From IMG/VR virus record IMGVR_UViG_3300020370_000003, positions 1 through 64,000 of that record: DNA of 64,000 nt. One strand, written 5' to 3'. The notes beneath the pieces were generated by a model. That model searched no databases, had not been told where the DNA came from, and saw nothing but the letters and a program-made list of their open reading frames with translations. Below are positions 39,641 to 60,600 of the stretch, one piece after another (positions within the stretch are counted from its first letter, which is position 1; each line of letters starts with the position of its first letter). This DNA is from a virus. A program made the position numbers and the translations under genes.

Positions 39641-42600
39641 TTATGGTGTTTCAGGGTCTACTAACTCTTCACCATATTGTGAAAGGTCAGGAGCAGTCCA
39701 ATCATCAGGAACTGATGTCTCAACCTCAATATTAGGATTTTGATATCCAGTACCTTGGTTATTAATAACAACTCCACCGACACCAACTAGTGCGTTAATA
39801 TCTCCTTCAAAACCAGATATAGAGTCAACTCTAACATTTGGTCTGCTTGTGTATCCAGATCCACCTGAAGTAACCTGTACACTATTAATAAATCCTGAAG
39901 TTAAATTTGCCTGTGCTTGTGCGTTCTGTCCGAACACAGAACCAAGATAGTCAAATGTAATTAGAGAGTTTGAAGACTCAATAACAGCAACCTCTCTGTC
40001 TGATGTCTCACCTTGGATGTCAATAAAGTCACCAGGTTCGATAGGTGGAATAACTTCAGCAGCATCAACGTCTGCCTCAGAACCAACGTAGGAGAATCCA
40101 ACAAATGTAGAACCTACACGAGGAATCTCAGAGAAAATGATACGTGAACCAACCAATTCAAAACCAACGCCTGGTTCCTGAATAACACCGTTAAGTGAAA
40201 CGATGATATTATTCTCAGGTCTGATAGTTGTGGACTGAACACCATCCGTAAGCGTTAGTGAGTAGAATACATCATTACGCTTGAGGTTGAATGACTGACG
40301 TAAGGAGTCAAACTCGAATGAGATATCATCCAACTGTCTCAACTTACCTACGTAGAATCCTGTAAATGATGCTCCTAAATCTGGTGGTTCTGTGAACTGA
40401 ATAGAATCAGAGAACGCTGTATAAGCAGAAGACGCACCAGGTGGTTGAAGAATACCATTAACAAATATAAGAAGATGTCCAGCTGGATCTGGTAGGTACT
40501 GAGTACCATTACCAGTAGAGAGTTTGAATGTAGTTTGAACTCCATCAAATCCCTTAAATGCTCTCTTAACACGTGCGAGAAGTGGAACTTTATTTACCAC
40601 GATTGCCTTATAATCATCAGCACTGATAATTGCATCCTTAGTAACAAATGTTCCTTTGATATTACTTAGATAAACTCTCTTAAGAGTACCGCTATCACGT
40701 ATATCCTGAATTAAAGCTGAACCAGCACCAGGTGTGACAACCCTTGTAGTTACAGATGCGTAACCAACTGGGAAGTTATTTCCAACTCCATAATCACCTA
40801 CGAGATCTCCATTTGTAAGAGGTGTTCCTTGGAAATCAGCAACATATAAGAAGTTGTTATCTAGATCAACTTCAGAAATTATTGCATAATTATCAAAGTC
40901 CTGTATACCACCAACAACCTTATAAAGTCTACTACCAACAGTAAATTCATTCAATCCACTAATGACTGTAATACCCAAGCGTGTATATCCAGCAGATGCG
41001 ATTCTATCACCAACTGATATATCAAAACCATCAAACTTATTAACTTCAATATATTGTCTAGAAACTTCAGGATAAACAACAGAAGTTGTTTCAAATGAAC
41101 CTAATAGAGTTTCAGTATCAACTGTTAAAGTACCACCTGTATTATCAAGTACAGCAGCTTCTGTACGTATAAATTCGGTTGGAGTAGCAGTTGCACCACT
41201 AGTGTATGCCTTAAATGGAACCGATGCCTCAAATGTACCCTTAAGGTCTATAATTTGAAGACGATCTGTAATTACACTAATCTGTCCTGTTGGTGGTAAT
41301 TGTGCTCTATCAGATTCAACTATATCAAGAGCTGCAAATGTACCAGCACTCATTATCACATCTACGTATCTGTAGTTCTCATCTTCCCATAATCCATGAA
41401 CAGTTCCATTTACAGCATTATCAGATACCTTTCTAATAGTTTCACCTATCCAGAATGGTCCATCTGTTATCTCAGCATCAAATCGTAATCTCTGATAGAT
41501 GTTAACAATCTCACCTTCATTAACAGTCATAGTTTCTAATTCTGCATATGCACCACTATTAAATCCATACAAGTAATCAGAATCATTTAATCCACCACCT
41601 AAACCAATTGGTACTTCTCTAGTTCCATATGTGTAGGTAGGCATACTAATACCATTGTTAACAGTGATATTAGTGTAGAATGTATCTAAACCTAGTTGTC
41701 CTTTTAGAATATCTAAGTTACTTCTGATACATCTAGTTACTGACTTATCGTTATAGTATGCAGAAGAGTTAGCATCAAAGTACTTAATATAACTTGCAGC
41801 AGGTGAAGGTGATGTGAGTGTATCACTTATTGCCTGACTTGCATAAGTTTCTAAAGCACTTAAAGCATAGGTCTTAACATTGTACTCAGTATCTGCGTAG
41901 AATATTTCACCAAGTTGAGAAGTGTATGGGTCAATAGTACCAACAGATAATTTAGCACCCCACATAAACATACCACTTGCACCATCACCCAAGTATGATA
42001 AAGAATTAGTAGTATCATACATTAAGAATTGAGCACGTAATTCACTAAATCCAAAGGATATAGTTGTTGTAATATATGCTCTATACCATCCATTACCATA
42101 AGGTACTGAACCATATGCATCACCACTTATACCACCTTGAGGTTGGAATAATGTTCCAGCAGTTCCTGTAGCAAGATCTAAGTCAAAGAATACATCTTGC
42201 TGACCAACTGTACCAGCATCCATAACAAGACCGAATCTAACTTTATTAAATTCATCTCCTTTAAAGAATACTGAGAATGTATATTGCTGATTATCATCAT
42301 CAGTAGCTGCTCCACCTTCGTCAAAACTATTGTTAGTATCATCAAACTTAATAGTTCCATCATCCCACGTATCATAAGATGTTAAACTATAGTTTCTACT
42401 AGTATAGTGATAACCATTACTCTGATAAGCAATTAATTTTTCTGCAGTTTGTGTACCATCTGGTGCTTGTGCAAAATCATCACTAATAACAATATAACCA
42501 GGAAGCCAATTAAATCTTATTTGCTCTGGATTTGAGAATAAGTTAGGTGCAGATACCTGACCTTGGATATTAGATTGTATATTCTTAGCAAAAGCAATAG

Positions 42601-45600
42601 TTCTAACATTTGCTGGTTTGTTAAACCAAGTATATGGATAACCAACTCCACCCACTTTAACATTTGCTACAACACCAGAACGTGTTCCTTCTAGTCTATC
42701 GTTTGCTTCCCAAGGAGAACCATACCATTTTCCAACAACTAAGAAACTACCTTCACTCTTATATTCAAGAACTACAGCAGATCCACCACCAGCTCTTTGA
42801 CTGAATATCATCTCACCAACTTCAAAAGCACCAGTAACATTTTCAATTTCAATATTATGTGCTACTACTGTATCAGTAATATCAGTTGTAATTAAATCAT
42901 GTACTAAATTAGTAACAATGGTATTGAGCCAATCATCATACAACCAAACAGAAGAACCGAACTGCTGTGCTACAAGAGTTGTAATCTCTTCTTTATAGTA
43001 ACTCTGGTTATAAAGTAAGTTCTTAGCAGCACCTCTCATTGCCAACTTACCAGGAGCAAGTATATTAAGAGCAATATCAACCAATTCTTTAAACCTAGTA
43101 ACAACTGGGCTCATATCAACTGGTGTTAATCCATCTCTATATGCTTCTATAGTAGTATAGTTAAAGTTATATGCTGGAGGAACCTCATTAGAATCTTTAG
43201 TGTACAACCTATTAAGAATTGCATGCTCACCTAACCACTTCATCTGCTCAATAGCATATGTTGTTGCTAATAACTCATCTTCGATGAAGTTAATTTGCAT
43301 TGTAGTGGATAGATAATTTTCCATTGCAGCAATAGTGCTATTATTTCCACCTGTTTGTAAGTCAGAAATAATACCCAACATAATAAGAGATAGGTCACGT
43401 TGACATGTTTGAACACCACCTGGTTCTGGATATAAGAATGCATTGTAGTAAGGACCACCTTCTGCTAATTGGAATTGGAATTCATTACTTACTAATGTTG
43501 TTATTTCATCAGCAATTGATTTTCTATTAAAGTATAATCTATCAGCAGATATTGCAAAGTCATTATTTGTAGGAGCAATGATATCATTAGCAGTTTCAAC
43601 TAAACTATCAATTGCTTCCTTAACATCAGCACAATCACCAGGAGAGACTATTCCAGCAGCAACTGCACTTACAAATGTATGTGCTTGAACATTAGTTGTA
43701 GCACCAACATTAAGTGTAATTGTTGTTGCATCAGCAGCAAGGATTTCCAAATTGCTACCAGACGCAGGGTCAGTTGATCTTGGATATGCAGCCTGAGATG
43801 ATGTAACTGCACTAACGTTAACTGTAATTGTTGTACCAGTTACAGCACTAATTGCTAGAACACCATTATTCATATCTGACGTATTAGTAGACGCAGGGTC
43901 AGTAGGACGTGGATATGGATGATTAGAAGAATGATTATCAGCATCACAAGTAAATGTAATTCCAAAATCAGCAATACTAATTGTATTACTTGTAGTCAAA
44001 CTATGTGATCCAATTTCTAATTCTAAATTACCATTTGAAGGATTATATGTTGTTCCTGTTGCTGCAGTAAATGGTCCACCAGAGTCTGCAGTAATGGCAT
44101 CAGTAACACCACTTACAAAAGTATGAGTTCCTGTACCACCAGCACAACTGAATGTTAAAGAAGCATTTGCGACATTAACATATCTTCCAACTTCAAGACT
44201 ATGAGTTCCGATAGTTGCAACAAGAATACCAGTTGCAGGATCATAAGTTGCTGATGAAGCTGTAAATGTAGATGATGTTGATTGTGTAATACCCCAATCA
44301 CCAACTATAATTTTATCAGTATTATCATAAGTTAAATTACCAGTTATCGCTTGCTTCATGTAATGTGCAAGACGTAAATGTGCATATGCAGATTGGAATA
44401 ACTGTAAGCGAATATGTAAGATTACATCATTAGCACCAAGATATCTCCTAGCAACGTTAACTGTATTAAAGTTACCACCTTGTCTAAGGTCTTTAATAAA
44501 TTCGGTAAGAATTAATGCTAAGTCAGTCTTACACTGTAAAGTACCATTTCCACTACCATCAGCATTTCTAGGCATATCCAGAACAAGATCTGGATATAAA
44601 GTCAACATATCATAAGATGCTTTATCTACAATAGGACCAGCATTTGCTTCTACTAGATCTGCAGCATCTTGGAATCTATACTTACCATTACTACCAATTT
44701 GATTTGCATATATTATATCATCAGTAGAATTGTGTAATGAAACTGGGAATGTTTCTTCCAAATATGCATATACACGTCCACCAAGGAATTCATTATTTGG
44801 ATCTGAAGATAATTTTGATACAGAACCAAGATGATCTATAGGTGATGGATTATTAGCATCTTCTAAAGTATCAGTAACTATATCAATTAAGTTTTCTACA
44901 GTTGCTTGAACATCTACACAATCACCTACACTATAATCCATAACAGTAACACAATTAGTTTCTGCAGAAACAAAAGAATGCTTAGTTAAGAGCTTCTTAA
45001 CTGCACCAGGGTCAGCACTTGAGAATGTGTGAGCACTTGCTGGTTGATAAGAAACATTATTGCTACTTGCATTACCAGTAAATGTATGTGCATAATCACC
45101 ACCAGTTACAACTGCTGCTCTCTTAATACAGTTAGTTGCATATGTTTTACCAGCTACGAATGTATGTGTAGTAACGTTAGTAGAAGGTGATATATCTAAA
45201 ACTTGAACTTGGAAGGTATATGATGTCAATCCTGTAGATAGAACCTTCAACCACTTACCACTTGCAGGGTCAGTTGCTCTTGGATATCTGTGCTCAGTAG
45301 CATTACCGTCCTTAGTACATGTAAATGTTAATGAATTATCATCAAACTTAATATACTCACCTGCATCCATATTATGAACAACATTAGTTGTAACAGTCAT
45401 TATTCCTGTCCAACCACTATATGTTATTCCAGTTGGTGTGTACTTATCATATACTGTATAGAAAGCATGTTCTGTGGTATTACTAATAGCACCATTAGAT
45501 ATATTAACAGTAACAGAAGTTGAAGTTGTGGCAGTAATAGGATGAGATTTATTATAACCCCAGTCACTTGTACGAGGATAGTAGTGAATAGTATTACCAC

Positions 45601-48600
45601 CATCTTGAGCACAAATAAATCCAAATGATTGTTTAGCAATTTTAATACCATCACCAACCTCAAGTTCATGAGCACCAATATCAATGGTCAACATTCCAGT
45701 AGTAGGATCATATGCTGTTGTTGAACCAGCTGCTAATGAAGGATTGTATCCTTTGATAGGAGACTTACCAACATTAACCTTAATCATACCATTCTGTGCT
45801 CTAACACCATTAGTTGCAGCACTTAAGAAAGCATGAGTAGAAGTATCTGAAGATATTCCTACATTAACATCAAATGTATCATTAGTCTTATTTGAAATAG
45901 CTAACCATCTTCCACTTGAAGGGTCAGTTGCTCTTGGATACTTATGGTCCGATGTATATCCATCTAGGTTACATCTAAAAGTTAATGACTCATCAACAAG
46001 TTGGATGTAATCTCCATTATTAAGTCCATGAGCAGTCAATGTAATTGTCATTACACCTGTTGAAGGAACAAATGCAGCGTTACTAGCAGTACCTGAACTA
46101 TAATATACGTCAGTTACAGGAATTGATTTCTCAGCACCATAAGGATCTGTTGCACGTGGATATGTCTTAGTGGCAGTATTGCCATCCATATCACAAGTGA
46201 ACTGTAAAGTATTATTCTGTATAACAATACTAGAACCTTTACGCATTCCATGTTGACCAATCGTTAAAGTCATATCACCTGTTGATGCATCGTAAGTAGC
46301 AGCAGATGGTGTAAATGTCTGATTAGTTCCAGGTGTACCTACATTAACTGTTATTGAAGTAGCATCTGTAGCAATAACTGGCAATTCTTTACCAGAAGTA
46401 CGAACATCATGTCCAGGTCTAGGATAAGATTTAATGGACTGGTTATTGTCCATTGTACATGTAAATCTAATTGACTCATCTTCAATGATTACGAAATCAT
46501 CAGTTGTAATATCATGAGCAAGAAGGTTTATCTGTAAATTACCATTACTTGTATCGTATGTTGCAGTATCTGGATTGTATGGTTTATAATTTTTATTGAA
46601 TGAAGTAGGACCAACATTAACAGTAAATGAGTTTGTATCAAACTTAGTAATTGGTAATACTTGCTTAGATGAAGGATCTGTAGTACGTGGATACGTATGA
46701 TTTGAAGCTCTATCATCATATTCACATGTCATGGTCAATCCATGATCATCAATAGCAATTGCTCTACCTTTCTTCTTAAAGCATCCACCCTTAGCACCTG
46801 TAAGAGTATGTGTATAAGCACCACCAGTTCTAATTACAGCACGAGTTAATCCATTTGTTACAGCAGATTGGAATTGGTGAGTGGTAGTATTAGAAGAAGT
46901 ACCGACATTAACAACAAAGGTATCTTTAGTAACACTAGATACTTCCAAATATGTGTCGCTAGCTGGGTCAGAAGAACGTGGATATGTATGATCAGTCTGA
47001 TAGTTATCTTGTAAACAACGGAATGTTATTGAACCATCGTCAAATTTAACCATGTCTCCATTTTCAAATCCATGATTAGGAACTGTTACAGTCATTAAAC
47101 CAGTTCCAGGAGTAAATGCAGCAGTAGTTATAGTGAACTTCTCACCACCAGTAACAAATTCATGTGTATAATCACCACCAACAGTAAATGCTTTATCTAC
47201 TGTTAGTCCACCCTTCCAAACGTGAGTATATTGTCCACCACACTTAATAGCATCTGCACTAGCAGATTGGAATACGTGAGTTGAAGTATTTGAAGATATA
47301 CCAACATCAACTGTAATTACACCAGTTGGTCTCTGCATACTGTTTGCAACAAAGTTTACAAAGGTATGAGTTGATGTATCACTAGACTTACCAATAAAGA
47401 CATCAAATGTATTTGTCAGAACATTATCTAATGGTAACCACTCAAAGTAAGATGGGTCTGTACGTCTTGGATATGAATGGTTTGTAGCATCATCGTCTTT
47501 AGCACAAGTGAATGTTACTGCATTTTCGTCTAATCTAACCTTATCATTTGCCTTAATTAACCCATTAGCAACTGCTGATACCCATACGTGAGTTGTATTA
47601 TTAGAAATAGGTTGATCACCAAATGCACTTCCAACAGTCATACTGAAATCGTTAGCACTTGTGCGAAGAATTGGGAAGAATCTTCCACTAGCAAAATCAC
47701 TAGGTCTTGGATATGAATGGTTGGTAGAATTACCATCTTCAGCACAAGTAAAGACTAAAGAGTTATTAGCAATCTTAACCATGTCACCAGTTACAAATCC
47801 ATGATTAGCAGATGTTACAAATAGTTCACCTGTTGCTGGATTAAATGATGTACCACTTTCTGCAGTCTTTGTAGTTGGAGCAGTTAATCCATGACCATCC
47901 ATAGTTATGGTCATCATACCTGTAGTTGGATTATATGCTGCATCAGTTGGAGTATGAGTTGTAGTCTTAACATCCTGAACATAAGTTGCAGTATTGTATG
48001 CATAGTCAGCACCACCAGGAGCATTAGAACCAGATGCACGAGGATATGTCTTATCTGTTGTCTGACCATCAAGATCGCAACGGAATGTTAATGAATCTTG
48101 CTCGATGTATACAGAATCACCAGCTCTTGTAATACCATTTTGAACACAACTTACAAATGTGTGAGTATAATCACCACCAGTAATTACAGCACCTGATAAA
48201 GATGAATGATAGTTATGAGTACCAGCATGACTAATTGCCGTATCTGGTGCTTCGTTAACGTTTACCGTAATGGTTGTTGCATCCTTAGCAGTAATATTCA
48301 ATGAAGTATTGTATGCATAGTCTTGATTATCACTTGTATTAGCACCATATGATCTTGGATATGACTTCTGAGTAGAGAATCCATCTCCACCATAATCACA
48401 AACAAATGTGATTGAATTATCTTTTAATCTTATACTAGTTCCAACTGAAAGACTATGTGTACCAATGGTAAGTACTAAGTCTCCAGATACAGGATCGTAG
48501 CTAGCATTAGAAACATCAAAGTCTAATTGTGGTGAAGTTCCTACGTTAACATCAAATGTATTATCAGTAACGTTAGAAATTAGCATCCACTCCCCAGACT

Positions 48601-51600
48601 TAGGGTCAGTAGATCTTGGATAAGTATGCTCACTACCGTGTTGGTCTAATGAACATGTTAATGATATTGCATTATCAGCAACCTTAACCTTATCCCCTAT
48701 CATGAATCCATGATTAGGAATTGTAAGTGTCATTACACCAGTTGATGCAATGTAATTTACATCAGTTGCTGTATGAGTGGTAGAATCCTTAATCCAATGA
48801 TTACCAATAGTCAAGTCCATAATACCTGTCTCAGGTACATAGACAGCAGCAGAAGGTGTATATGCTGAGAACTTACTCTTACCAACATTAACAGTAAAGG
48901 CATTATTATTCTGCCTAATACCGTCAGCTAATCCAGAAACGAAGCTGTGTGTATAAGCACCAAATATAGTTCTACCAACAAATACATCAAATGTAGTGTT
49001 AGTTGAAGCTTCTACAACACTCCATCCTCTTCTAAACACTGGGTCAGTCTTACGAGGATATGCATGGTTTGTAGCATTACCATCTTTAGTACAACTAAAG
49101 GTAATAGCACCTTCTTCAAATCTAACTAACTCACCAGCAACTTTCATGCAAGGGTTAGTAGTTACACCAACACATGTATGCTCACTAAGGTCTTGAGACT
49201 TACCAATAAACAAATCAAATGTATTATCAGTTCTATTCTGTGCAGGTAACCATTCATCTCTTGCAGGGTCACCTGAGCGTGGGTAGAAGTGGTCTGTTGT
49301 CTCATCATCCAATCCACAACGGAATATAAATGCACCATCATTAAGTCTAACAAGGTTACCATTGTATACCTGATGACCAGATGATGTAATAGTTAACATT
49401 CCAGTAGCAGGGTCATAAGCAGCACCAGTACAATTTCTAGTACTTGGTGGGCTTAATAATGCACCGCAAGTAACAGTCATCATACCTGTTAATGGGTTGT
49501 ATGATGCATCAGTTGCAGTCCTATTAATTTCAGAAATATTAGTAACTTCAACAGCAGTACCACGAGCAGGGTCAGTTAATCTTGGATATGCATGATCGGT
49601 TGCTTGACCGTCCATATTACATGCAAAGAGGAATGCCCCATCTCTAAGTCTAATGCTATCACCAACCATTAAATTCATATTTCCACCTAATCCAGGAGAA
49701 CCAGGAGCAGAAGTGGTAATTACTAATGCACCAGTTACAGGAGTATAGTTTGCACTAGAAACATCGTATGCAATATTATGTGTCTTACCAACATCTAAAG
49801 TAATTGTATTATCCTTATGAATAATACCATTAGGATCTGCAGACTTAAATGTATGTAATGAAAGGTCAGTAGATATACCAACATTTACATCAAATGTATT
49901 AGTAGTTACATTAACAATCTTATGTAACCTACCGCTAGTTGGGTCTGTAGAACGTGGATATCTATGTTGAGTTATGTTGTTGTCCAACAAGCACTCAAAT
50001 GTAAGTGAATCATCAGCAATACGAACTTTATCACCATGAGCAAATCCATGACTAAACACTGTAATTGTTAGTAAACCTGTTTCTGGTGTGTATGATGCAC
50101 CATTTGCAGTATGAGTAGTTCCTTCATATAGAATAGGAACACTATCCTGATAAATGAAATCATTCGCTCTTGGATATTTCTTAACAGACTGCAATCCATC
50201 CATAGTACATCTGAATGGAAGACTACCTGTAGCAACCTTAATATTTGTACCAGCTCTCAATCTATGCTCACCAATAGTCATCTTAAGAAGACCTGTTGAA
50301 CCACTGTATGTTGCAGCAGTAGGATTGAAAATTACGTCTGGTGTTTTACCAACATCAACTTGGAAAGTTGTTGAGTCAACAACAACAACATCTAACCAAC
50401 CTTGACTTGCATGGTCAGAAGCTCTTGGATACTTATGCTCAGACCTATTCTGATCCATAGTACAAGTAAATGTTAGAGACTCATCTTCAATTTGAAGTTT
50501 AGAACCTGCTGTAAGATTATGAGCACTACCAGTTGTACATGTAAGCATACCAGTAACAGGGTTATATCCACCACCATTAATTGATAATGATGTTTCACTA
50601 AACAAACCATGTGATGCTTTTAATATTTTTAATTCGCCAGTTGCAGCATTATATTCTGCTCCTGAAGGTGTGAATTTAGATGCTGCATTACCACTAGACT
50701 CTGTAATACTAGTATCAAATTTCTGCTTGTGTCCATGATGACCTTGAACATCCCAAGCATCATTGGTTATGATATATCTTAAAATTTGATTTAATTTACC
50801 ATATGTCCAAACAGTTTCTACAATTTCATTTTCAACGTTGAGTAATTTAACATTGTTTATATCTTCTCTGTCAACATAGTATGATGCAGCAGTCCAAATC
50901 TTTTCATTACTACCATTACGTAAATCAGATGCAATAGACTTACAAATATCTTTAACATCATCTTGACAATTTACACTACCATTAATGACAGTGAAATCTG
51001 GGAATTTCTGTTCTAATAGATATACTGCCTCTTGAGCAATGAAGTCTAAGTTGGATTCAATCAATGTAGCAGCATTGTAATACCTGTTAGTATTTCCAAC
51101 AAAACCTCTAGAAACTGCTCTACCAACATTAACTGTAATTGTAGTACCAGTTACTGAATCAATTGTTAATGCTACTCCATGTGCAGGGTCAGTTGGTCTT
51201 GGATATCTATGCTCAGTTGTATGATTATCTTTATCACAAGTGAATGGTAACTTATCAGTACCAATAGTTACAGTATTAGATGTTGTAAAACTATGAGATC
51301 CAATAGTCAATACTAAAACACCAGTCTCACCATTATACGTTGCATCAGTAACATCCTTTATAGTTCCATCGTTAAATGTAAGAGCAGCGTTTGAAGTACC
51401 AGCTACAAATGTATGGTCACCAACATAACGAACAGTAGAAATTATAGCATCGTTATTGAAATATTCTCCCTTTGTGAATGACTCAGAACCAGACCAATCT
51501 TGTACCCATTGCTGACCATCTTTACCATCAAAGTGAAGTAACATCTTAGTAGCACTATCACCTTGGAATATTCCAGCTAAAGGTGTAAATGCAGCTGCAT

Positions 51601-54600
51601 ATCTGACAGTATTAGAGATTCTTACCTCATCAATATGACCGATAAATCCAGTTCCAAATGCATAACCAACACCAATAAACAGTGGTTTAGCAGTATAAGT
51701 TGTGTTATCAGTTCCAGTACCAACCTCAACACCATCAATATACATCTTACCAGATGTACCTGTTCTAGTGTAAGCAACATGAGCCCATGTATCAGCAGTT
51801 AGAGATGTTCCAACAGAAGTTACAAGATCTGCATTATTAACATTCCAACGAACTTGACCACTTTCGAGATATACTCTCAATGCAACTTCATTAGCACTTG
51901 AAACTCTTGTATCAAAAACATCGATAGTTCCACTTAATGAAGAAGAATCAGGACGTATATAGAATTCAAAAGTAAAGTCACCACTACTAAATGCAATTTC
52001 ATTAGTTGTTTGACACCAGATATAATCTGTTGTTCCAGCAGTTAATTGTAATGAAGCAGCACCATACTTTTTCTGTGCGGTATCAATCTGAGCACTACCA
52101 GCAAAAGTAAAATCAAAATAGTCTTCACCATTAGACTTAGTTCTACCAATCTTACCAAGATATACTGTATTACGTGCTTGGTTATATCCAATAACTTCAG
52201 CCTTAGTATCTCTAGATCTTATAACTTGACCAGAACTAAAGAATCCAGTTCCTTCTCTATCATAGAAGGACATCTTTCTAACTTTACCAGTTTCACCAGT
52301 TACAAATTCATTAGTATTATTACCATATTCAATCTTATAATTACGAATATTTTCATTAAGTTGTAACGTTCCTGTTAAATTATTAAATGGAACAATATAA
52401 TTATTAATCTGTTCATTAGCTGGGAAGTTACCATTATAAGGAGTTAGATTATCGGTAGCATCAACAATACTTACTGCAGATGATGCAATATCATCTAAAA
52501 CAACATTTGGATAAGTCTGAGATGTAATTCTGTTGAATAATAATCCAAAGAATGAAGAACCAGGAGAGATATCAACCTGACCAATAAATTCTTGAGTTAT
52601 AGGATCTTGATAAGCAGATGTTGAAGTAATTCGTGCTATAACACCAGACTGTGCTCCATAGATAACATCATTCAACTGAATATCAAATAATCCAGGTGTT
52701 GATGTATATGTACCTGCAGTCTTACTTAAAGTTAGTTGATCAGTAACCTCAATTTTAGTACTATAAAGTGGAGTATTATCTTGCTGATTCGCTGCAGTTG
52801 TACCAAGAACATTTCTTACAACTGTAAGTGATGTGGATTCTGCATTATCTACAGTGCCTACAAGAGTAAAGATTTCAGATCCTACTTGATAATTAACATT
52901 AGCAACAAATGTTCCTACAGGTACTGGTTGGTCAGTAGATGCAGTTGGGTCAATAACTTCAAATACAGTTGTAGAAGGACCAATAGAATACCTTAATTTA
53001 GCAATAGGCATCTCTTGTCCAGTTTCTAAGTTAACTGCTTCAACCTTTGCAGTATTACCTTCTAGGTTTGTAATATTTTCACCAAAAGTAAATAGTCCGA
53101 TACTTCCAACTGGAGTTATAGATGCTAAGTTTCCAGCAAATCCTGTTGCTACAACGTTACATAATTCACCAAGTATAAAACTACCATCAGTTATATAACC
53201 AGTAACTACATTACCAACTACTTTCAATACAGTAAATCTAGCATCAGTAGAACTACCCTTAATCTCATTACCAAGACCAGGATAAATTCCACTAGGATTA
53301 TTGAATGTCATTTCATATCCTTGAATAGCATCAATGGTAACAGAAGCATATTTAACACTTGCTGGTGGTCTTGGTGGTTCATTGAATACTATAGAATCCT
53401 GTTGGATTGTAAATGCTGTCTCTGGGTTTTGTACAACACCATTCAAGACAACCATTAACTGATTTGCGTTAGCAACAACAGTACCACCATTAACTGTTAA
53501 TGGGAATGAAGTCTTAATACCATCAAACTGGTCTGATATATCATCAACTCTCTGTACAACAGAAGTTAGAATGTTCTCAGAAGATGTCAATCTCTTCTGT
53601 CTGAATAGTACTTCTGTATTATTAAACTCAGTATAAATTGGATCTACAAGAGCAAAGTTTTGAATATTTGGAACAATTGCTTCTTGAGCAAGTTCTACAG
53701 ACTTAGTAAGTTCAAAGAAAGTATCTTTATTAGGAATCTCTCCATACTCATTCAAGTTCAACTCACCAAACACCTTAAACGATGCAGGGTGAACGTTTCT
53801 GATTAGAATTTCTTTCCACTCACTGATAGAAACAGCAGACTTAACAGCATAAGAGAAGTCCTGATAGTAGTAAGAGTCTTGAATCTTTTGAATAATTTCA
53901 GATGGTTTACCAACATCATCAATAAACTGACCAGTAGTCTTAGTTATAGAACCAATATCTAGAACACCACGAGCAAACTTAAGGTCACTAATAGTACCAG
54001 AAGACTTAGAAATAACACCAGTTATTTGTTCACCTTCTGAAAATACACCATCATAATTAACAATCTTAAGAATTCTAGGTCCAATCTGCCAACCAGAGTT
54101 GGTTGAAACATATCCTTGTGCTGTTGATGTCTCTAATGAATCACCCTGATAAACAAGTTCACCTTCAAGGAAGGTAGAAGTAATAACATTAGCAGTAGCA
54201 GCACCACCAAATGATTCAGTTAAGATACTCTGACGACCATCACCAGCGTTAACAAATGATAATGCATCACCCAATTCTGCGTTTTGAGGAGTAATAGCGA
54301 TCTTTAATTGATCATCTTCTAGAGAGTTTGCACTACCAGAAATTGCATAATAAGTAGTATTTGGATTAAGACGACCTGTTGCACCAGCAGCTAGAGGATA
54401 ATCAGCACCATCTCCAGTATCTGTTACAGCAACACTAATTTCAGCACCATTAGTAATACCATGTGGATAAGCAAACTGTAATAAACCTAAGTCAAGGTTA
54501 ACAACATAGTTAAATGAAGACCTAAGACTTACAGAAGGAGTGGAAGAATATCCAGCACCTGGGTCTTTAACTTCAACAATATCCAATCTACCATTCTTAA

Positions 54601-57600
54601 TAGTTGCTTCAGCAGTTGCTCCAGATCCACCACCACCTGTAATAACAACAGTAGGTGCTAATGAATATCCAGAACCTGGATTAGTAACAGTAATACTTTC
54701 AAGAATACTTGTAGAAGTTAACTGAGCATTAAGTGGGAATGTAATCTCAGGACGTAAAGTATAGTCATGAGGATAATCATAACCAAAGTTATTATTCTTA
54801 AGTTTCTTAATCTTACCAACCTTATCACCCTTAGTGAAGATAGATGCTTCAGTACCGAAAGGTGGAATAACAACTGATAAATCTGCACCAGATCCAGTTA
54901 AACCAGCACCAAGAATACCAGAAACACCTTCAACGTCAATTGTAGCAGAAGTGTATCCTTTACCTGGAGATGTGACAAGAACTTCTTGAATCTGACCTGG
55001 AATGGTTATACCTTCATCATCTTGTCCATCTGCAACAGTAATTTGAACAAATCCACCTTCACCATCACCAGCAATAGGTACACCATTATATGTTCCTACA
55101 GCATATTCAGTTCCTGGTTCAATAATTTGAACTCTTTCAATCTTTCTTGTAGATGCGATACCAGTAACAATAGGTAACTTAGTATAGAAACCACCTGGAT
55201 TAATGATACGGATATCTCCAATAGAACCAACTGCTTTTAATGAACTTGTAGTATATGAAGTTCTTGAAATATCACCAATACCTTCTGGCTCATTTAATAA
55301 TGGGAATTTAAATACATCAGCACCACGAGTAATTGTTTGACCAGAAGTACTGCTAATTGTAAATGTACCAGTATAAGGTGAATCTGTTACATCAAGATAA
55401 CTATCAGAAATTACAGGAGAATCAGCACCAGTTCTAGAAGGATCGAAATAGTAGGAAATATTAGTAACTATATCACTATCAACTTTCAACTTAACTGATG
55501 GATTTGGTTCTCCTTGACCAGTTAAACCAGGAGTTCCAATTCTTTCAATAGAGTTGAATGAATATTCCAACTTATAAAGATTATCCTTAGCAAAAGATAA
55601 ATTACCACCAACAAGTGTAGAATGAGCTAAATCAAAGATATACTGATGTCCATAGTACATCTTTAGAGTTGGAGACTTAACAAATATACCAACACTAGCA
55701 GCATTAGTTGCAGGAGCAGTTATAGCAGTTTGTGGTAATTTGTAAGTAAATTCAAGTGGACTTACAACAGTATCAACAGCAAATGCACCATCATACTCAT
55801 CGTAAACAAGACCACCATCTGTTTGTGATGGGTTACCATCAACATAAACAATTTCACCTTCAGACAAGTAATGACTTGTTCCTGTAATTACATAAACTTC
55901 ATCACTATTAGCAACAGCAGTTATTTGAAGTATTCTTTCTAGATTAGAAATCAATGTAATCTTAGTAACACCTATTAAATTTGTTATCTCACATGTATTG
56001 TAATTAGCATTGAAAGATATATCGCTAGATGTAAGTGAAACTACAGATCCAACAATAAACGATGAACTACCACCAATTTCATCAATTCTAACTGAATAGT
56101 CACCTACATTAAATGGTTTAAATCTAGCAAAGTCATCTAAGTTATTAGTACCACCAATATTAGCAGGAGCATCATAAGTGGACATATCAATATCAAATGT
56201 TCCAGGAGTTGTATTGTTTACCTGTGCGAAGGTATATGCCTTCATTTCATTAACATCATTTGGAATAGGACCAACTATTCCATAAGTATCTTGTTCATTA
56301 AATTGCTCACTAACTAAAATACCAGTGTTTAAATCATTAGTCCAAGGATTATTCTGAACAGCAACATAAATTTTTCTGTTAGGTATATCAGATTTAATGA
56401 TATATCCACTATTAATAAAGTTACCATTAGAAAGATTATTAAGTCTTAACTTAGAACCAGTAGTAAATATGAACGGTTGATTTATAGTTAACTCTTGAAT
56501 ATTATCAATTTTAACTGTATTAGTAACCTTAAAGAAATATCTATCCTTAACTACAGCAGATACTTGTAATTTTTGAGAACCTGGAGAAGGAACAGTCGCT
56601 GTTCTAGAACTCCAAATATCATTAGTATAAGTTAATGTCTCTGTACCTGGAGTCATTGTTATAGTAGCATCATCAAAGTCTAAAGTTTGTAGACCTGCAT
56701 CACCTAACGCAAAATCAGCTTCACCTATTGTCATTGAAGATCCAGTAACAGGAGTTACAGAAGTTCTGACAAATCCTAATTGAGTATTAGTTTGTACACC
56801 TTTATCACCCAATCTAGTAGAATCAGCATTCTTATCTACTTTTAAATTCCATCCATTATGGTCAATATAATCATACTTGGTTAAATTATTAGTAAACCAA
56901 GCAGTGTCTGTCCAAGCAAATCCTAATGCAAATGATGCAACAGGAGGTAAACTCGAAATATCAGAAGGTACAGTTACAGTAACTGCTCTATTTCTCAATC
57001 TAATATTATCAATGAAGAATTGACCTTGATAATTTTGACTGAAATCTGTAGCACCAGCACCAAAACCAACCTGGTTACCAAAGTACAAGTCCTTAGTAGC
57101 AAAAGAAGTATTTGATAATGTACCTGTTATTACTTCTATACCATTAACAAATGCTTTAAATACATTACCTTCTTTCCTTACAGCAATGGTTTGCCAACTA
57201 TTGTCAGCATACATTGTTGTTTGTGTGGATGATTGTCCAGAACCATTAATTAACTGAGTTGTTTGATTGGTAATAACCATCTGCAACTCACCAGAGGAAT
57301 TATCATATCCTAACCATAGTCCACCAGTAGCATCTCTAGCACCACCGATACCCATTATAGTTTGGACATTTTGTGATAAAGTCTGAGATTGTGACCCAGA
57401 TTTGTATATAAAGAACTCTAAAGTCCAATCATTTGCTAATGTTGTACCTAAATCAGATCCAGCAACCTTAAGATAAGAATTTTCCCATGTAGAACTAGAC
57501 CCAGCTGGTTGATAACCATAGATCTTTGCCATATTATCATCATAAGTTATAGCATTACTTGCTCCAACTGAAGTTAAAGTATAGTTGCTAGTTAGATCTG

Positions 57601-60600
57601 TTTGCTCATTAGCAGCAAAATCGAATATAAACTCATTCCTATTCCATTGAGTTTGACCAGAAAGGTAAACATCACCAGAATTATCAGTATTAACTGAATG
57701 AACGGTTATACCTTCAATACGGTTTTTATTAAATTCATTAGTTGTATGATTCTTAATAATACCATTATATCCAATCTTAACTGAATCTACAGTTTTAACA
57801 CCAGTTGTAGTATTGTCTCTACTAAATGCAACGTTTAAATCTCCAAATATATCGATAGAACTCCTATCTGCCATAGTGATATCTCTACCAGGAGCAACAT
57901 AACGATAATTCCAAATTATATCACCAGTTCTACTAACTTTACAAACCCAAAAACTATCTTTCTGTGTAGGATCAGACTTAAATCTTAATGAACAAGAAAT
58001 ATAACACTCATTAAATTCGTCAAAGACAAGACTACCATCAACTAATGAATATACAGATGTACTATACTCTTTAATAAAGTCTATATTAATTGCACTTGTA
58101 GTTAAAGTTGCTTTACCAAATGCAAGATTAACATCGGTAGTAGATTGATTTAACCCTACTTCCATTAAGAAGTATAATTCTGTAGCTCCTGAAGTAGTCG
58201 TTATGACCTTCATATCTACAATCTTTTCAGATTTACTAGTAGATACAAGCTTTCTCTTAATAGCAAAATTACCAGTACTATCAATAGATGCTAAGAATGC
58301 ATCATATGGGTTACTGGAATTTGTATTAGTATAACCACCAATAATGAAACGAGTATCACTCCATTTTTGAATTGAAGTTACATAGTCAGCACGAGTAGCA
58401 CCAGAGATACCAGCATATCCTTTTTGGAACTGTAATCCAGCACTCAATCCATTTTCTGTCTGAGTATACTTAGCAAGTATAACATCTGGATTATATGCAT
58501 TAAGTAGATTAGAATTTGGCTTATTATTACCAACCACCCAAACATCAAGACCATCTACATAAAGTTTTTGAAACTCTGTATAGTATTGTCCATCAGTACT
58601 CTCTAGAGTATTCTCCCACTCTTTAACACCTGTAGCAGATAATTTAGCAACAAAACCTACTGAATTTCCAACAGCATCTTTTGTTTTACCACAAATAAAG
58701 ATCTCTTTATTATCACTAACGTAAGTATCATTAATTTTAACATAATTCTGATTTCCAATTTTAGAAAGATAATAATCCGCTTTCTTAAAGACCTGTGGAT
58801 GAGATAATATAACACGAGGATTAGATGTATATCCAGAACCAGAATTTAAAATATTAACTTGATCAATAGCACCAACAGTTGATACAACTGCTTCTAATTT
58901 TCCAGAAGTACCATCACCATCAATTGTAATAGTTGGTGGAATATCTGTATTGTATCCAGAACCTCTTTGGTCAATAACAATCTCTTCTATACCTTTATAT
59001 TGACGAACTACAAACGTTTTGTTTGTATTCTGCATTATAGGAGTATAATCTATATAAACAACATCACCAGCAATTAGATTATGAGGATCTGCTGTCTGTA
59101 AGACACCATAATTAGCACCACTAATATTCTCAAAATCATATGCAGCAACTGCTTCACCCTTGATTTTTGAAATACGAGCAGATACACCAGCTCCATCAGT
59201 ATCGGTATTATCAAATATTAATCTATCATCTACCTGATAATTCTTACCTGTGTTCTCAACAGTAAATCCAGTAACAGAAGCATCTTCAAATTTAGTTGTT
59301 GTTTCAACTTCAATATCAACTTTAGAGTCAAATTTAACTTTAGGGAAGTAATCAAATAACTGTAAAGGTGACTCCTCAAACATTTGATCGGGGTCAGCAG
59401 TCTCTTCTGGACCTATAATTCCATCTCTATTTTCATCCTCTACTTCAAACAACAAGATCTCACCATCTTCAGTTGTTAAAGCAGCAGTAGAAGCATTAGG
59501 AACCCTTTCAACATCAATATCAACATTCTCATAAGGGTCTCTATAACGTACAACTCCAGTTGGTATATTCTGCTGAATTGCATTTGCACTAAGGTTCCAT
59601 TCATCAACAACAGAGTTGAAACTTGGTCCTATAACATATGGGAAAAGTGGACTACCTGCATCAGTAGCATCAATAGTAACGAAATAAGCATAAGCACCAT
59701 TAGGGAAGTCAGGAGTCTTACAAAAACGACCATTATACTGGTCTAAGTCACCTAATCCAAAACTATACTCATAGTCTTCTACAAAATTACCAGCAGGTTC
59801 TTCTGTTAATAATGGACCAGCAGTTCTATTTGGAGTTGGATTAATAGTATCATCATAAATTAATTCATCCTTTAATTTGTAAGAAGTTCTAAGTCTTACG
59901 GTAGCAGAACTTTGGTCAGTAGGATCAACGTATCCATAAGGACCGTAAATTGGATTACCATCAAATGCCCAACCGATAATTGGAGAGTGAGATAACTGCT
60001 CTTCTTGTTCTAGAATATTTCCTGTGCCAATTTCTTCATAAAGGTTATCACCAAGGATATACCTCATCTTTTGAGGGTTTGAAAGGTGAGCATACTCACC
60101 ACCATACTCATTATTGTAACCAGTAAATACAGAACCTTTAGCAGTATCAAACTGTGAAGTTGCTTGAAGGTTATAATTCCATTGGAATACATTTGCAGTA
60201 AAAGTAGCATTTTGACCAACGGAAGTCAAATTAATAATAGTACTACCTTGGATGTAGTTAATACCTTTGTTAACAATCTCAATATTGGTAACCCTACCAG
60301 CATTTTCACCGTCTGTGTCAATAGTTGCTCTTGCAATTGCACCAAATCCAACACCTTGAACAGATACTTCAGGTGCAGTAGTATATCCAGATCCAGCAGA
60401 AATGATAGCAATAGATATAATTCTACCATCATTAACAATTGCTTGTGCAACAGCACCTTTACCAGAACTTAGTGTTACTGTTGGACTTGAAGTGTATTGA
60501 ACACCACCATTAGTAATACCAATAGACTGAATAGGTCCACGAACAGATGCAGTACCAGCAGCACCATTTCCACCACCACCAACAATAGTAATAAGTGGTT

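What the first reader, a model, noticed from the sequence alone, without database searches (positions are those of the whole stretch)
41690..51090. Phycobiliprotein-like domains with conserved bilin-attachment cysteines inside the giant baseplate protein: a candidate chromophore-bearing virion
Seen in sequence: gp7 has three clear and one degenerate helical repeats. D1 (from ~51088) reads AATLIESNLDFIAQEAVYLLEQKFPDFT...NCQDDVKDICKSIASDLRNGSN (Cys 50966-50968) and closes with GDCVDVQATVENLID (Cys 44918-44920). D2 (from ~44680) reads RFQDAADLVEANAGPIVDKASYDMLTLYPDL...RNADG...QCKTDLALILTEFIKDLRQGGN (Cys 44531-44533) and closes with PGDCADVKEAIDSL (Cys 43631-43633). D3 reads TCQRDLSLIMLGIISDLQTGGN (Cys 43403-43405)...YAIEQMK and closes without a Cys. 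D4 (~43040-42880 plus ~41880-41690) lacks the motif Cys. Established knowledge, recalled: phycocyanin alpha reads roughly AA..L..NA..L..GA..AVYQKFP.TT...KCARD[12 residues]..GG, and beta reads RLDA....ANA..IV..A...L....P.L...GGNAY...ACLRD.EIIL...V.KMK...GDC. The C-x-R-D Cys (82/84) and the GDC Cys (beta-153/155) are the bilin attachment sites, and the Asp protonates the bilin. The C-to-GG spacing in D2 and D3 matches the alpha subunit exactly. The large repeat insertions fall just before the GDC helix. T4-like cyanophages commonly encode a CpeT-like T-type lyase (the class that serves beta-Cys153/155), some encode ho1/pebS/pcyA, and light-dependent adsorption is reported for some cyanophages. 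Inference: the substrate of phage bilin and lyase genes might be the phage's own baseplate, giving a pigmented, possibly light-responsive particle. No lyase or bilin gene lies in this window, and I have not checked whether this similarity has been reported.
Basis: partly seen in the sequence, partly recalled or inferred. Interest (0 to 1): 0.93.

Follow-up and report, generated by a model that had tools for sequence, protein, structure and literature searches.

The report
Phycobiliprotein-like domains in cyanophage baseplate
The giant baseplate protein of this marine cyanobacterial virus contains three clear domains (and one degenerate one) that are true, diverged relatives of its host's light-harvesting pigment proteins and keep their pigment-attachment cysteines, so it can now be tested whether the virus particle carries pigment and senses light; pigment binding itself has not been shown.

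Summary
All quoted motifs and cysteine codons lie where stated, inside one 8,209-residue gp7-like baseplate gene (39641..64270, minus strand) of a T4-like cyanomyovirus related to P-SSM7.

The phycobiliprotein (PBP) reading of the fold holds:
- An AlphaFold model of D3 (pLDDT 84) matches only PBPs at the top of Foldseek and VIA-align (Z 15.9).
- D2, split by a 210-residue beta insertion, still gives Z 14.0.
- A family profile hits phycocyanin alpha in the PDB at E 2.6e-6, and hhalign gives 95-96% probability.
- The first Cys aligns with Cys82/84 and the 'PGDC' Cys with beta-Cys153.
- The domains lack the N-terminal X helix, and probably most of Y.

In my samples the family occurs only in marine cyanophages: 14 of 15 cyanomyovirus isolates and 0 of 9 control phages. 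CpeT is the only lyase family found in these phages (13 of 15). A heme oxygenase gene sits in this phage's baseplate module, just outside the window.

Against an obligatory pigment: P-SSM3 and P-SSM4 lost every Cys84-equivalent, and only the D1 'DC' Cys is invariant.

Bilin binding is untested; I put it at about 0.45. The scan has found this before on other DNA (at least 93 genomes), with concordant follow-ups. I found no published report.

The parts
39641..64000 (-). Giant gp7-like baseplate wedge gene. The true start is at 64270, outside the window, and the product is 8,209 aa.
   Evidence: A single open frame. PHROG hits to virion structural protein and baseplate wedge subunit. Gene order is gp25, gp6, this gene, then a gp9-like gene. 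The P-SSM4 orthologue is annotated gp7.
50657..51109 (-). D1, N-terminal part: helices A/B, E, F and G of a phycobiliprotein-like domain. The Cys84-equivalent is at 50966-50968, in N-C-Q-D-D.
   Evidence: Family profile domain E 8.9e-27. Internal alignment A1.
45095..50656 (-). Insertion of about 1,850 residues into D1, made of YPR-type beta-domain repeats.
   Evidence: It lies between the profile matches for D1N and the D1 closing helix. 18 of the 20 YPR motifs fall here.
44837..45094 (-). D1 closing helix H with 'GDC' (Cys 44918-44920), the beta-Cys153 equivalent.
   Evidence: Weak profile match. The motif x-D-C-x-D-V is invariant in 9 isolates and the window.
44201..44701 (-). D2, N-terminal part. 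The Cys84-equivalent is at 44531-44533, in Q-C-K-T-D.
   Evidence: Profile E 1.8e-29. hhalign against CpcB aligns this Cys with beta-Cys82. The AF2 model shows helices at residues 4-120.
43643..44272 (-). All-beta YPR insertion in the G-H loop of D2, between 'GDWGITQ' and 'PGDC'.
   Evidence: Strands at model residues 144-353. The insertion is absent from the orthologues L019-L038. It weakly resembles the E1 FCCH domain.
43562..43642 (-). D2 closing helix H with 'PGDC' (Cys 43631-43633), the beta-Cys153 equivalent.
   Evidence: The Cys is residue 357 of the model, directly before helix 358-375. hhalign pairs 'GIT..PG.C' with 'GITPGDC' of CpcB.
43031..43585 (-). D3, a complete uninterrupted phycobiliprotein-like domain. 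Its Cys is at 43403-43405 in T-C-Q-R-D, and it has no second Cys.
   Evidence: Profile E 2.6e-37. AF2 model pLDDT 84.3, pTM 0.82. All top 50 Foldseek hits are phycobiliproteins. VIA-align Z 15.9 to phycoerythrin beta.
42902..43051 (-). D4, N-terminal part. Degenerate, with no Cys.
   Evidence: Very weak profile match to positions 11-38. The same weak match recurs in orthologous loci.
41675..41965 (-). D4, C-terminal part, after an insertion of about 310 residues.
   Evidence: Weak profile match to positions 68-147, domain E 0.054. It recurs in orthologues with scores of 6-15 bits.

Best explanation
The stretch encodes the middle of the giant gp7-like baseplate wedge protein of a marine T4-like cyanomyovirus.

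Shown here:
- The protein contains three clear domains, and a fourth degenerate one, that are diverged homologues of phycobiliproteins.
- Each domain is the globin-like core (helices A/B, E, F, G, H) without the N-terminal X helix and probably most of Y.
- The domains act as scaffolds. Arrays of small beta domains (YPR repeats) are inserted in the G-H loop directly before the Cys that corresponds to beta-Cys153.
- The positions that carry bilins in phycobiliproteins are kept: Cys82/84 with its Asp in D1, D2 and D3, and beta-Cys153 in D1 and D2.

Inferred:
- During assembly in the infected cell, at least some of these cysteines receive a bilin by thioether bond.
- The D-C site of D1/D2 would be served by a T-type lyase. 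Most relatives encode CpeT; here the lyase would have to come from the host or from the unsequenced half of the genome.
- The C-x-x-D site would be served by a host S-type lyase or filled autocatalytically.
- The phage's own heme oxygenase, encoded inside the baseplate gene module, would feed the bilin pool.
- The result would be a baseplate carrying a few tens of bilins per particle.

More speculative: the bilins could serve as a light-responsive element in adsorption, or simply as a structural cofactor.
For: Fold:
- D3 model pLDDT 84. All top 50 Foldseek PDB hits are phycobiliproteins, with TM 0.58-0.65 over about 175 columns.
- VIA-align gives Z 15.9, rmsd 2.8 A over 152 residues, to phycoerythrin beta. 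The top 8 hits are all phycobiliproteins or ApcE.
- D2 with its insertion gives Z 14.0 over 153 residues, matching residues 26-184 of the chain.

Sequence homology:
- The family profile against the PDB gives E 2.6e-6, and the first 49 hits are phycobiliproteins or phycobiliprotein-derived proteins. Cys aligns on Cys84, D on Asp87 and GGN on GGT.
- 14 of 33 family members hit PF00502 below threshold, and no other family recurs.
- hhalign gives 95.1% against CpcA and 95.9% (E 2.6e-9) against CpcA+CpcB. The D2-type profile against CpcB gives 80-87% over 135-138 columns and pairs both cysteines.

Constraint on the site:
- In 1,079 domain instances from 165 proteins, C is kept in 98%, R in 89% and D in 99%.
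- In 64 instances from 14 isolates, Cys is kept in 54 and Asp in 58.
- In D3 orthologues, C, R and D are lost together and replaced by bulky residues.
- The D1 'D-C' is invariant in 9 isolates plus the window.
- The two cysteines are lost independently, so they are not an obligate disulfide pair.

Distribution:
- Three tblastn queries gave 338, 356 and 143 phage records. All were cyanophages or uncultured marine viruses.
- The profile finds the domain in 14 of 15 cyanomyovirus isolates and 0 of 9 controls. The controls included T4, Pelagibacter phage HTVC008M and cyanopodoviruses.

Bilin genes:
- ho1 (E 3e-70) lies between the PAAR-like gene and gp25 of this phage.
- CpeT is in 13 of 15 isolates and CpeS in 0 of 15.
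- The only isolate without the domain, P-SSM2, also lacks CpeT.

Light:
- P-HM1 and P-HM2 (5-6 domains each) do not adsorb in the dark. P-SSM2 and P-SSP7 (no domain) do (PMC6628666).
Against: - No bilin binding has been shown, and I know of no report of coloured cyanophage particles.
- P-SSM3 and P-SSM4 lost the Cys84-equivalent in D1, D2 and D3, and the Cys153-equivalent in D2, yet keep cpeT and a bilin reductase.
- D3 lacks its Cys in 17 of 30 aligned sequences, while SDLQTGGNNS stays invariant.
- The Arg of C-x-R-D is missing in D1 (C-Q-D-D) and D2 (C-K-T-D).
- The family has its own invariant residues that phycobiliproteins lack (second Asp 96%, GGN, Tyr 95%). These point to a constraint other than the bilin.
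- The X-Y hairpin is missing.
- This phage's 81-kb record and its closest isolate P-SSM7 have no cpeT.
- The ho1-baseplate linkage is not conserved. In P-HM1, P-HM2 and P-SSM2 ho1 lies far away.
- The co-occurrence and dark-adsorption counts are small and not corrected for phylogeny.
Confidence: 0.45

Rival explanations
1. Apo scaffold. The domains descend from a captured phycobiliprotein gene but no longer bind bilin. They serve only as rigid helical modules that carry the beta-repeat arrays on the baseplate. The conserved Cys, Asp and D..GGN residues are kept for packing, for an inter-subunit disulfide formed after release into oxidising sea water, or for a metal site.
For: - The fold and homology evidence is the same as for the best explanation.
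- The Cys is dispensable in P-SSM3 and P-SSM4 and in many D3 orthologues, while the rest of helix E stays invariant.
- The family has invariant residues of its own that phycobiliproteins lack.
- The Arg is absent from D1 and D2.
- No lyase was found in this record or in P-SSM7.
Against: - 98% Cys, 89% Arg and 99% Asp over 1,079 instances, among domains only about 20-25% identical, is hard to explain by packing.
- There is one Cys per domain in the tandem proteins, at a position that is buried in a pocket in phycobiliproteins. That is a poor place for a disulfide.
- C, R and D are lost together in D3 orthologues, as expected of one functional site.
- The two cysteines vary independently.
Confidence: 0.4
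2. The pocket binds another ligand instead of a covalently attached phycobilin. Candidates are a non-covalently held bilin or biliverdin, heme, or another tetrapyrrole, as in other globin-like proteins. The conserved Asp would be the ligand contact and the Cys would be accessory.
For: - The Asp is more conserved than the Cys (91% against 84% in isolates), and is invariant in D2 even where the Cys is lost.
- Below the phycobiliproteins, the next structural neighbours are photocobilins, globin-coupled sensors and RsbR (Z 8-11.6).
- Heme oxygenase alone, without a reductase, was found in this record.
Against: - By sequence only phycobiliproteins are hit.
- There is no His at a proximal-ligand position among the conserved columns.
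- The record is only 46% complete, so a reductase may lie elsewhere.
Confidence: 0.1
3. Chance resemblance. The repeats are an unrelated helical bundle, and the C-x-R-D and GDC motifs are coincidental.
For: - Pfam gives no hit at E<=10 on the window's own segments.
- A single-sequence search of the PDB finds nothing.
- Helical models often reach middling Z scores (note).
Against: - Profile-to-sequence E 2.6e-6 with 49 consecutive phycobiliprotein hits.
- hhalign gives 95-96% probability.
- Two independent models both put phycobiliproteins first, at Z 14-16 and above every other globin-like protein.
- Both motifs fall on the homologous columns.
Confidence: 0.03

Closest known systems
Phycobiliprotein beta subunits (CpcB, CpeB; Pfam PF00502)
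   Same: - Best structural match (phycoerythrin beta 5aqd_M: Z 15.9 for D3 and 14.0 for D2).
- Near-global profile alignment of D2-type domains to CpcB residues 24-173.
- Cys at the positions of beta-Cys82 and beta-Cys153, including the 'GIT-PGDC' context.
- The insertion site is in the G-H loop.
   Different: - 12-17% identity, and below Pfam's gathering score.
- No X helix, and probably not most of Y, so no evident alpha/beta pairing.
- Embedded in an 8,209-residue virion protein.
- Insertions of 210 to about 1,850 residues in the G-H loop.
- The Arg of C-x-R-D is missing in D1 and D2.
- Bilin content is unknown.
C-phycocyanin alpha subunit (CpcA)
   Same: - Best sequence match (E 2.6e-6 against the PDB; hhalign 95.1%).
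- K-C-x-R-D-[IV]-G-[YF] and the Gly-Gly 18 residues after the Cys are shared without gaps.
   Different: The match covers only helices A/B to E (about 60 columns). CpcA has no Cys153 site.
ApcE (core-membrane linker) phycobiliprotein domain
   Same: - A phycobiliprotein-type domain built into a very large multidomain protein and interrupted by a loop insertion.
- Among the top structural hits (4xxi_A Z 13.7 and 12.4; 7eyd_19, 9wg7_N2, 7sc7_BD).
- From general knowledge, ApcE attaches its bilin without a lyase. That is a precedent for autocatalytic loading.
   Different: ApcE is a cellular phycobilisome component. Its insertion lies in a different loop and its bilin Cys is at a different position (general knowledge, not tested here).
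T4 gp7 baseplate wedge protein
   Same: - Position in the gene order gp25, gp6, [this gene], then a gp9-like gene.
- PHROG 'baseplate wedge subunit' match at the C-terminus.
- Orthologues are annotated gp7 or baseplate wedge initiator.
   Different: - T4 itself has no match to the phycobiliprotein-like profile.
- The protein here is about eight times the length I recall for T4 gp7.
- Direct similarity to T4 gp7 was not tested.
Other bilin-binding globin-like proteins (photocobilins)
   Same: Globin-like bilin-binding fold. Photocobilins appear as structural neighbours (8j2w_B, 8j2y_B; Z 8-11).
   Different: They score lower than phycobiliproteins and are not detected by sequence. They are cellular photoreceptors, not virion parts.

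Membership tests
Phycobiliproteins (PF00502) | Globin-like phycobiliprotein fold (helices A, B, E, F, G, H) | tested here: met
   The D3 model matches phycobiliproteins first in Foldseek and VIA-align (Z 15.9, 152 residues). D2 gives Z 14.0 over 153 residues.
Phycobiliproteins (PF00502) | Sequence match to the family model above Pfam's gathering score (22.2 bits) | tested here: not met
   - The window's own segments give no hit at E<=10, and there is no match in the whole record.
- 14 of 33 family members hit PF00502 only below threshold (best E 2.5e-4).
- Homology is nevertheless supported by profile methods.
Phycobiliproteins (PF00502) | Cys82/84 in C-x-R-D on helix E (bilin attachment, with Asp and Arg as bilin contacts) | tested here: met
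   Cys and Asp are present and on the homologous columns in D1, D2 and D3. The Arg is present only in D3; D1 reads C-Q-D-D and D2 reads C-K-T-D.
Phycobiliproteins (PF00502) | Beta-type second attachment Cys (beta-153/155) before helix H | tested here: met
   'GDC' in D1 and 'PGDC' in D2. hhalign pairs it with 'GITPGDC' of CpcB. The Cys directly precedes helix H in the model. It is absent in D3 and D4.
Phycobiliproteins (PF00502) | N-terminal X-Y helix hairpin that forms the alpha/beta monomer | tested here: not met
   Alignments begin at about residue 24-38 of CpcA/CpcB and at residue 26 of phycoerythrin beta. Domains follow each other without room for a hairpin.
Phycobiliproteins (PF00502) | Covalently bound bilin chromophore | not testable with these tools
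   This needs spectroscopy or mass spectrometry of the protein or the virions.
Phycobiliproteins (PF00502) | Assembly into (alpha-beta)3 discs and phycobilisome rods | not testable with these tools
   No coordinates or complex prediction were available. The missing X-Y hairpin argues against it.
T4-type gp7 baseplate wedge protein | Place in the baseplate gene order next to gp25 and gp6 | tested here: met
   gp25 (PF04965, E 6e-15) and gp6 (PF21379, E 1e-17) lie directly upstream. The P-SSM4 orthologue is annotated gp7 and is followed by gp9.
T4-type gp7 baseplate wedge protein | Sequence or fold similarity to T4 gp7 itself | not tested
   There is only a PHROG match to 'baseplate wedge subunit' (phrog_2885, E 8e-80) at the C-terminus.

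The most novel reading that the evidence does not exclude
The virion carries covalently bound bilins on phycobiliprotein-derived domains of its baseplate, and in related phages also on tail-fibre proteins with up to 33 such domains. It uses them as a built-in photoreceptor that gates adsorption. This would explain light-dependent adsorption of cyanomyoviruses and give the phage-encoded CpeT, heme oxygenase and bilin reductases a substrate of the phage's own.
Probability: 0.15. Interest if true: 0.97.

Novelty: new variant of a known kind. Interest (0 to 1): 0.82.

Why it matters
Phycobiliproteins are known as soluble antenna proteins of cyanobacteria, red algae and cryptophytes. I found no report of them as parts of a virus particle.

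If the domains carry bilins, two long-standing puzzles become directly testable:
- Why T4-like cyanophages carry cpeT, ho1, pebS and pcyA. Several of them infect Prochlorococcus, which from general knowledge has little or no phycobilisome.
- How some cyanomyoviruses adsorb only in the light, independently of host photosynthesis (PMC6628666).

Even without bilin, this is a clear case of a host photosynthesis protein captured and rebuilt as a virion scaffold. It has since multiplied to hundreds of sequence clusters: 827 library representatives match at E<=0.001.

Tried and rejected
Searches that gave nothing:
- Pfam on the whole 3,835-residue piece and on five isolated helical segments found no PF00502 hit at E<=10.
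- A single-sequence search of PDB sequences with D2-D4 found nothing relevant.
- PF00502 against the phage's own record found no match.
- These failures reflect divergence. Only a family profile reaches phycobiliproteins.

Hypotheses rejected:
- An intradomain disulfide between the two cysteines. L025 and L027 keep Cys1 but lose Cys2, P-SSM4 D1 keeps Cys2 but loses Cys1, and D3 never has Cys2.
- Wide occurrence outside cyanophages. The one hit labelled 'Ca. Nanopelagicaceae' is 65% identical to the S-RSM4 short tail fibre and is probably a mis-binned phage contig. Nine control phages have no match at E<=1.
- My idea that tandem domains might stack like phycobilisome discs. I dropped it once the alignments showed the X-Y hairpin is missing.

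Tools and sources that failed:
- Using the phage ho1 to reach a cyanobacterial genome returned only actinomycete and other non-cyanobacterial loci. Phycocyanin genes were taken from metagenome contigs by the KCARDIGYY pattern instead.
- No TATAAATA late-promoter motif occurs in the 19 kb around ho1.
- The paper on phage CpeT (PMC5336146) is not held.

Full report
**What is there**

The window comes from an 81,398-bp IMG/VR virus record estimated 46% complete. Its closest isolate is Prochlorococcus phage P-SSM7, at 77% nucleotide identity over part of the region. Bases 39641 to 64270 on the minus strand form one open frame of 8,209 codons, which begins 270 nt beyond the window.

Directly upstream lie gp6 (PF21379) and gp25 (PF04965). 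The C-terminal part matches PHROG families of virion structural and baseplate wedge proteins. The P-SSM4 orthologue is annotated gp7 and is followed by gp9. This is the giant gp7-like baseplate wedge protein of T4-like cyanomyoviruses.

**The observation**

- The three N-terminal halves align with each other at 23-27% identity, with a shared pattern N..I..Y..P..G..C..D..I..DL..G.N..Y.
- A family profile run over all open frames of the record hits only this gene. It places D1N at 51109-50657 and the D1 closing helix at 45094-44837. D2N is at 44701-44201 and its closing helix at 43741-43562. D3 is at 43585-43031.
- D4 gives weak matches at 43051-42902 and 41965-41675. The first 4,388 residues of the protein have no such domain.

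**Fold**

D3 is uninterrupted, so I folded it with an alignment of 30 orthologues from IMG/VR loci.
- The model has pLDDT 84.3 and pTM 0.82. It has five long helices, and the Cys sits near the start of the 22-residue helix.
- All 50 listed Foldseek PDB matches are phycobiliproteins, with TM 0.48-0.65 over 167-183 columns. E-values are marginal, from 3e-3.
- VIA-align against 48,161 representative chains does not depend on Foldseek. Its best hit is phycoerythrin beta 5aqd_M at Z 15.9, rmsd 2.8 A over 152 residues. Allophycocyanin, ApcE and other phycobiliproteins follow at Z 12-14 in ranks 2-8.
- Only then come other globin-like proteins such as RsbR, globin-coupled sensors and photocobilins, at Z 8-11.6.

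D2 was folded with its insertion (alignment A4).
- The model is weaker (pLDDT 66). It shows helices A/B, E, F and G, then an all-beta block at residues 144-353, then one closing helix at 358-375. The 'PGDC' Cys is residue 357.
- Despite the split, the helices reassemble a phycobiliprotein fold: Z 14.0, rmsd 3.0 A over 153 residues to 5aqd_M, covering chain residues 26-184. The top 8 hits are again all phycobiliproteins or ApcE.

**Sequence homology**

Single sequences do not reach phycobiliproteins. A profile of the three repeats searched against 1.84 billion representative proteins found 827 at E<=0.001. Some have up to 33 matched stretches.

From these I aligned 33 full domains from different proteins (A3).
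- This profile hits PDB phycocyanin alpha chains at E 2.6e-6. The first 49 rows are phycobiliproteins or fluorescent proteins engineered from them.
- The alignment is ungapped from the Cys to the Gly-Gly. It puts the family Cys on Cys84, Arg on Arg86, Asp on Asp87 and GGN on GGT.
- Scanned one by one, 14 of the 33 members hit PF00502 below threshold. No other family recurs.

I then took phycocyanin genes from metagenome contigs by the KCARDIGYY pattern and ran hhalign.
- The family profile against CpcA gives 95.1% probability, E 3e-8.
- Against CpcA+CpcB it gives 95%, E 4e-8, over 97 columns.
- A D2-type profile against CpcB, in global or lenient local mode, gives 80-87%, E 1.5e-6 to 4e-6, over 135-138 columns.
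- The D2-type profile against CpcA+CpcB in global mode gives 95.9%, E 2.6e-9.
- These alignments pair the first Cys with beta-Cys82, and 'GIT..PG.C' with 'GITPGDC' (beta-Cys153).
- They start at about residue 24-38 of the phycobiliprotein. The viral domain therefore lacks the X helix, and probably most of Y.

**Insertions**

Orthologues L019-L038 and S-RIM50 have D2 without any insertion. In the window and its near relatives, one or two YPR beta domains sit between 'GDWGITQ' and 'PGDC'. D1 holds about 1,850 residues of such repeats at the same place.

The YPR unit weakly resembles the E1 FCCH domain (Pfam E 0.059; VIA Z 6.6).

**How conserved is the putative bilin site?**

- Over 1,079 domain instances in 165 proteins, Cys is kept in 98%, Arg in 89% and Asp in 99%. 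A second Asp (96%), GGN (80/70/84%) and a Tyr (95%) have no counterpart in phycobiliproteins.
- In 64 instances from 14 isolate genomes, Cys is kept in 54, Arg in 30 and Asp in 58.
- The gp7 domains are less strict. D3 has lost its Cys in 17 of the 30 aligned sequences, and there Arg and Asp are lost with it and replaced by Tyr, Arg, Val or Asn.
- D2 has lost Cys1 in L024, L029 and L031. It has lost Cys2 in those three and also in L025 and L027.
- P-SSM3 and P-SSM4 have no Cys84-equivalent in any of the three domains.
- The D1 closing motif x-D-C-x-D-V is invariant in nine isolates and the window, P-SSM3 and P-SSM4 included.
- The two cysteines of a domain vary independently, which argues against an obligate disulfide.

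**Distribution**

- tblastn of D3 found 338 phage records. A 730-residue tail-fibre piece found 356, and a fragment of a 33-domain protein found 143. All were cyanophages or uncultured marine viruses, out of 50,697 records searched.
- The profile finds the domain in 14 of 15 complete cyanomyovirus genomes. It is absent only in P-SSM2. S-PM2 gave 12 matches and S-RSM4 gave 16, in tail-fibre-like proteins.
- It finds the domain in none of nine controls at E<=1. The controls were T4, KVP40, phiM9, Pelagibacter phage HTVC008M, Microcystis phage Ma-LMM01 and freshwater S-CRM01. They also included cyanopodoviruses P-SSP7 and Syn5 and cyanosiphovirus P-SS2.

**Bilin genes**

- The window has none. 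The same record encodes a heme oxygenase (E 3e-70) at 67620-68225. It is packed between two 2OG-Fe(II) oxygenase genes, downstream of a PAAR-like gene and upstream of gp25, gp6 and gp7.
- No cpeT or bilin reductase is present in the 81 kb.
- Among the 15 isolates, CpeT is in 13 (not P-SSM2 or P-SSM7). A bilin reductase is in 8, which are all eight Prochlorococcus phages and none of the seven Synechococcus phages. Heme oxygenase is in 3 and CpeS in none.
- The only lyase type found in these phages is therefore the T type. By established knowledge this type serves beta-Cys153/155, the position of the one Cys that is invariant in gp7.
- The concordance of CpeT with the domain is 14 of 15. It rests on a single informative genome and is not corrected for phylogeny.
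- The ho1-baseplate linkage is not conserved in P-HM1, P-HM2 or P-SSM2.

**Light**

Liu et al. 2019 (PMC6628666) report the following.
- P-HM1 and P-HM2 do not adsorb in the dark.
- P-SSM2 adsorbs in the dark, although less than in the light. P-SSP7 also adsorbs in the dark.
- The light dependence of S-PM2 adsorption does not depend on host photosynthesis.
- The mechanism is unknown, and tail fibres are named as a candidate.

In my searches P-HM1, P-HM2 and S-PM2 carry 5-12 of these domains, while P-SSM2 and P-SSP7 carry none. This is a small, suggestive match and nothing more.

**Verdict**

Homology to phycobiliproteins, the equivalence of both cysteines and the insertion site are established as far as computation can (about 0.95). 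Whether bilin is bound is open.
- The strong, coordinated conservation of C-x-R-D, the restriction to cyanophages and the CpeT pattern speak for it.
- Loss of the Cys in some lineages, the missing Arg in D1 and D2, and residues invariant in this family alone speak against an obligatory chromophore.
- I put covalent bilin on at least one domain of this protein at about 0.45, an apo scaffold at about 0.4, and light sensing at about 0.15.

I found no publication describing such domains. Earlier notes of this scan, read after my own tests, report the same family in at least 93 other genomes with concordant follow-ups.

Noticed in passing
outside the window: record G000 67620-68225 (-), = L042:5528-6250: A heme oxygenase gene (PF01126, E 3e-70) sits inside the baseplate module. 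It is tightly packed between two 2OG-Fe(II) oxygenase genes, downstream of a PAAR-like gene and upstream of gp25, gp6 and the giant gene. In P-HM1, P-HM2 and P-SSM2 ho1 lies far from gp7, so the linkage is particular to this phage.
   Followed up: partly
window 63883-64000 and beyond: The giant gene does not start at the TTG at 63883 listed for the window. It starts at an ATG at record position 64270, giving 8,209 residues. Its first 4,388 residues have no phycobiliprotein-like domain.
   Followed up: yes
window 43643-44272 and 45095-50656: The YPR repeat unit is an all-beta domain that weakly resembles the ubiquitin-E1 FCCH domain (Pfam PF16190 E 0.059; VIA Z 6.6 to 4p22_B) and a phage phi92 endosialidase domain (Z 6.5).
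   Followed up: partly
proteins P0002 (6,382 aa) and P0003 (5,984 aa) from metagenomes: These giant proteins each have 33 profile-matched stretches, about 22 of them carrying the motif K-C-x-R-D-v-G-y-i-x-D-A...D-L-x-y-G-G-N. Two subtypes (GGN and [GN]SNF/Y) roughly alternate. The C-terminus of a relative matches cyanophage tail-fibre proteins.
   Followed up: partly
protein P0101 / P0168 (NCBI MAG labelled Candidatus Nanopelagicaceae): This fragment is 65% identical to the 'putative short tail fibre' of Synechococcus phage S-RSM4. It is probably a cyanophage contig binned into an actinobacterial MAG.
   Followed up: yes
15 isolate genomes (handles W01-W15): - Bilin reductase genes (PF05996) are in all 8 Prochlorococcus phages and none of the 7 Synechococcus phages sampled.
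- CpeT is in 13 of 15, much more often than the 31 of 153 quoted from annotations in a review (PMC10452541).
- P-SSM2 lacks both CpeT and the phycobiliprotein-like domain.
   Followed up: partly
L043-L122 (genome-contig loci): The 80 loci kept for the phage heme oxygenase in the species-genome collection are mostly actinomycetes, plus a few other non-cyanobacterial MAGs, at 34-42% identity. No cyanobacterium is among them. This may only reflect which peptide patterns the scan chose.
   Followed up: no
window 38391-39617 (-) and 34230-38384 (-): The two genes downstream of the giant gene (408 aa and 1,384 aa) correspond by position to the P-SSM4 genes annotated gp9 (baseplate wedge tail fibre connector) and baseplate wedge subunit. 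I did not examine them further.
   Followed up: no
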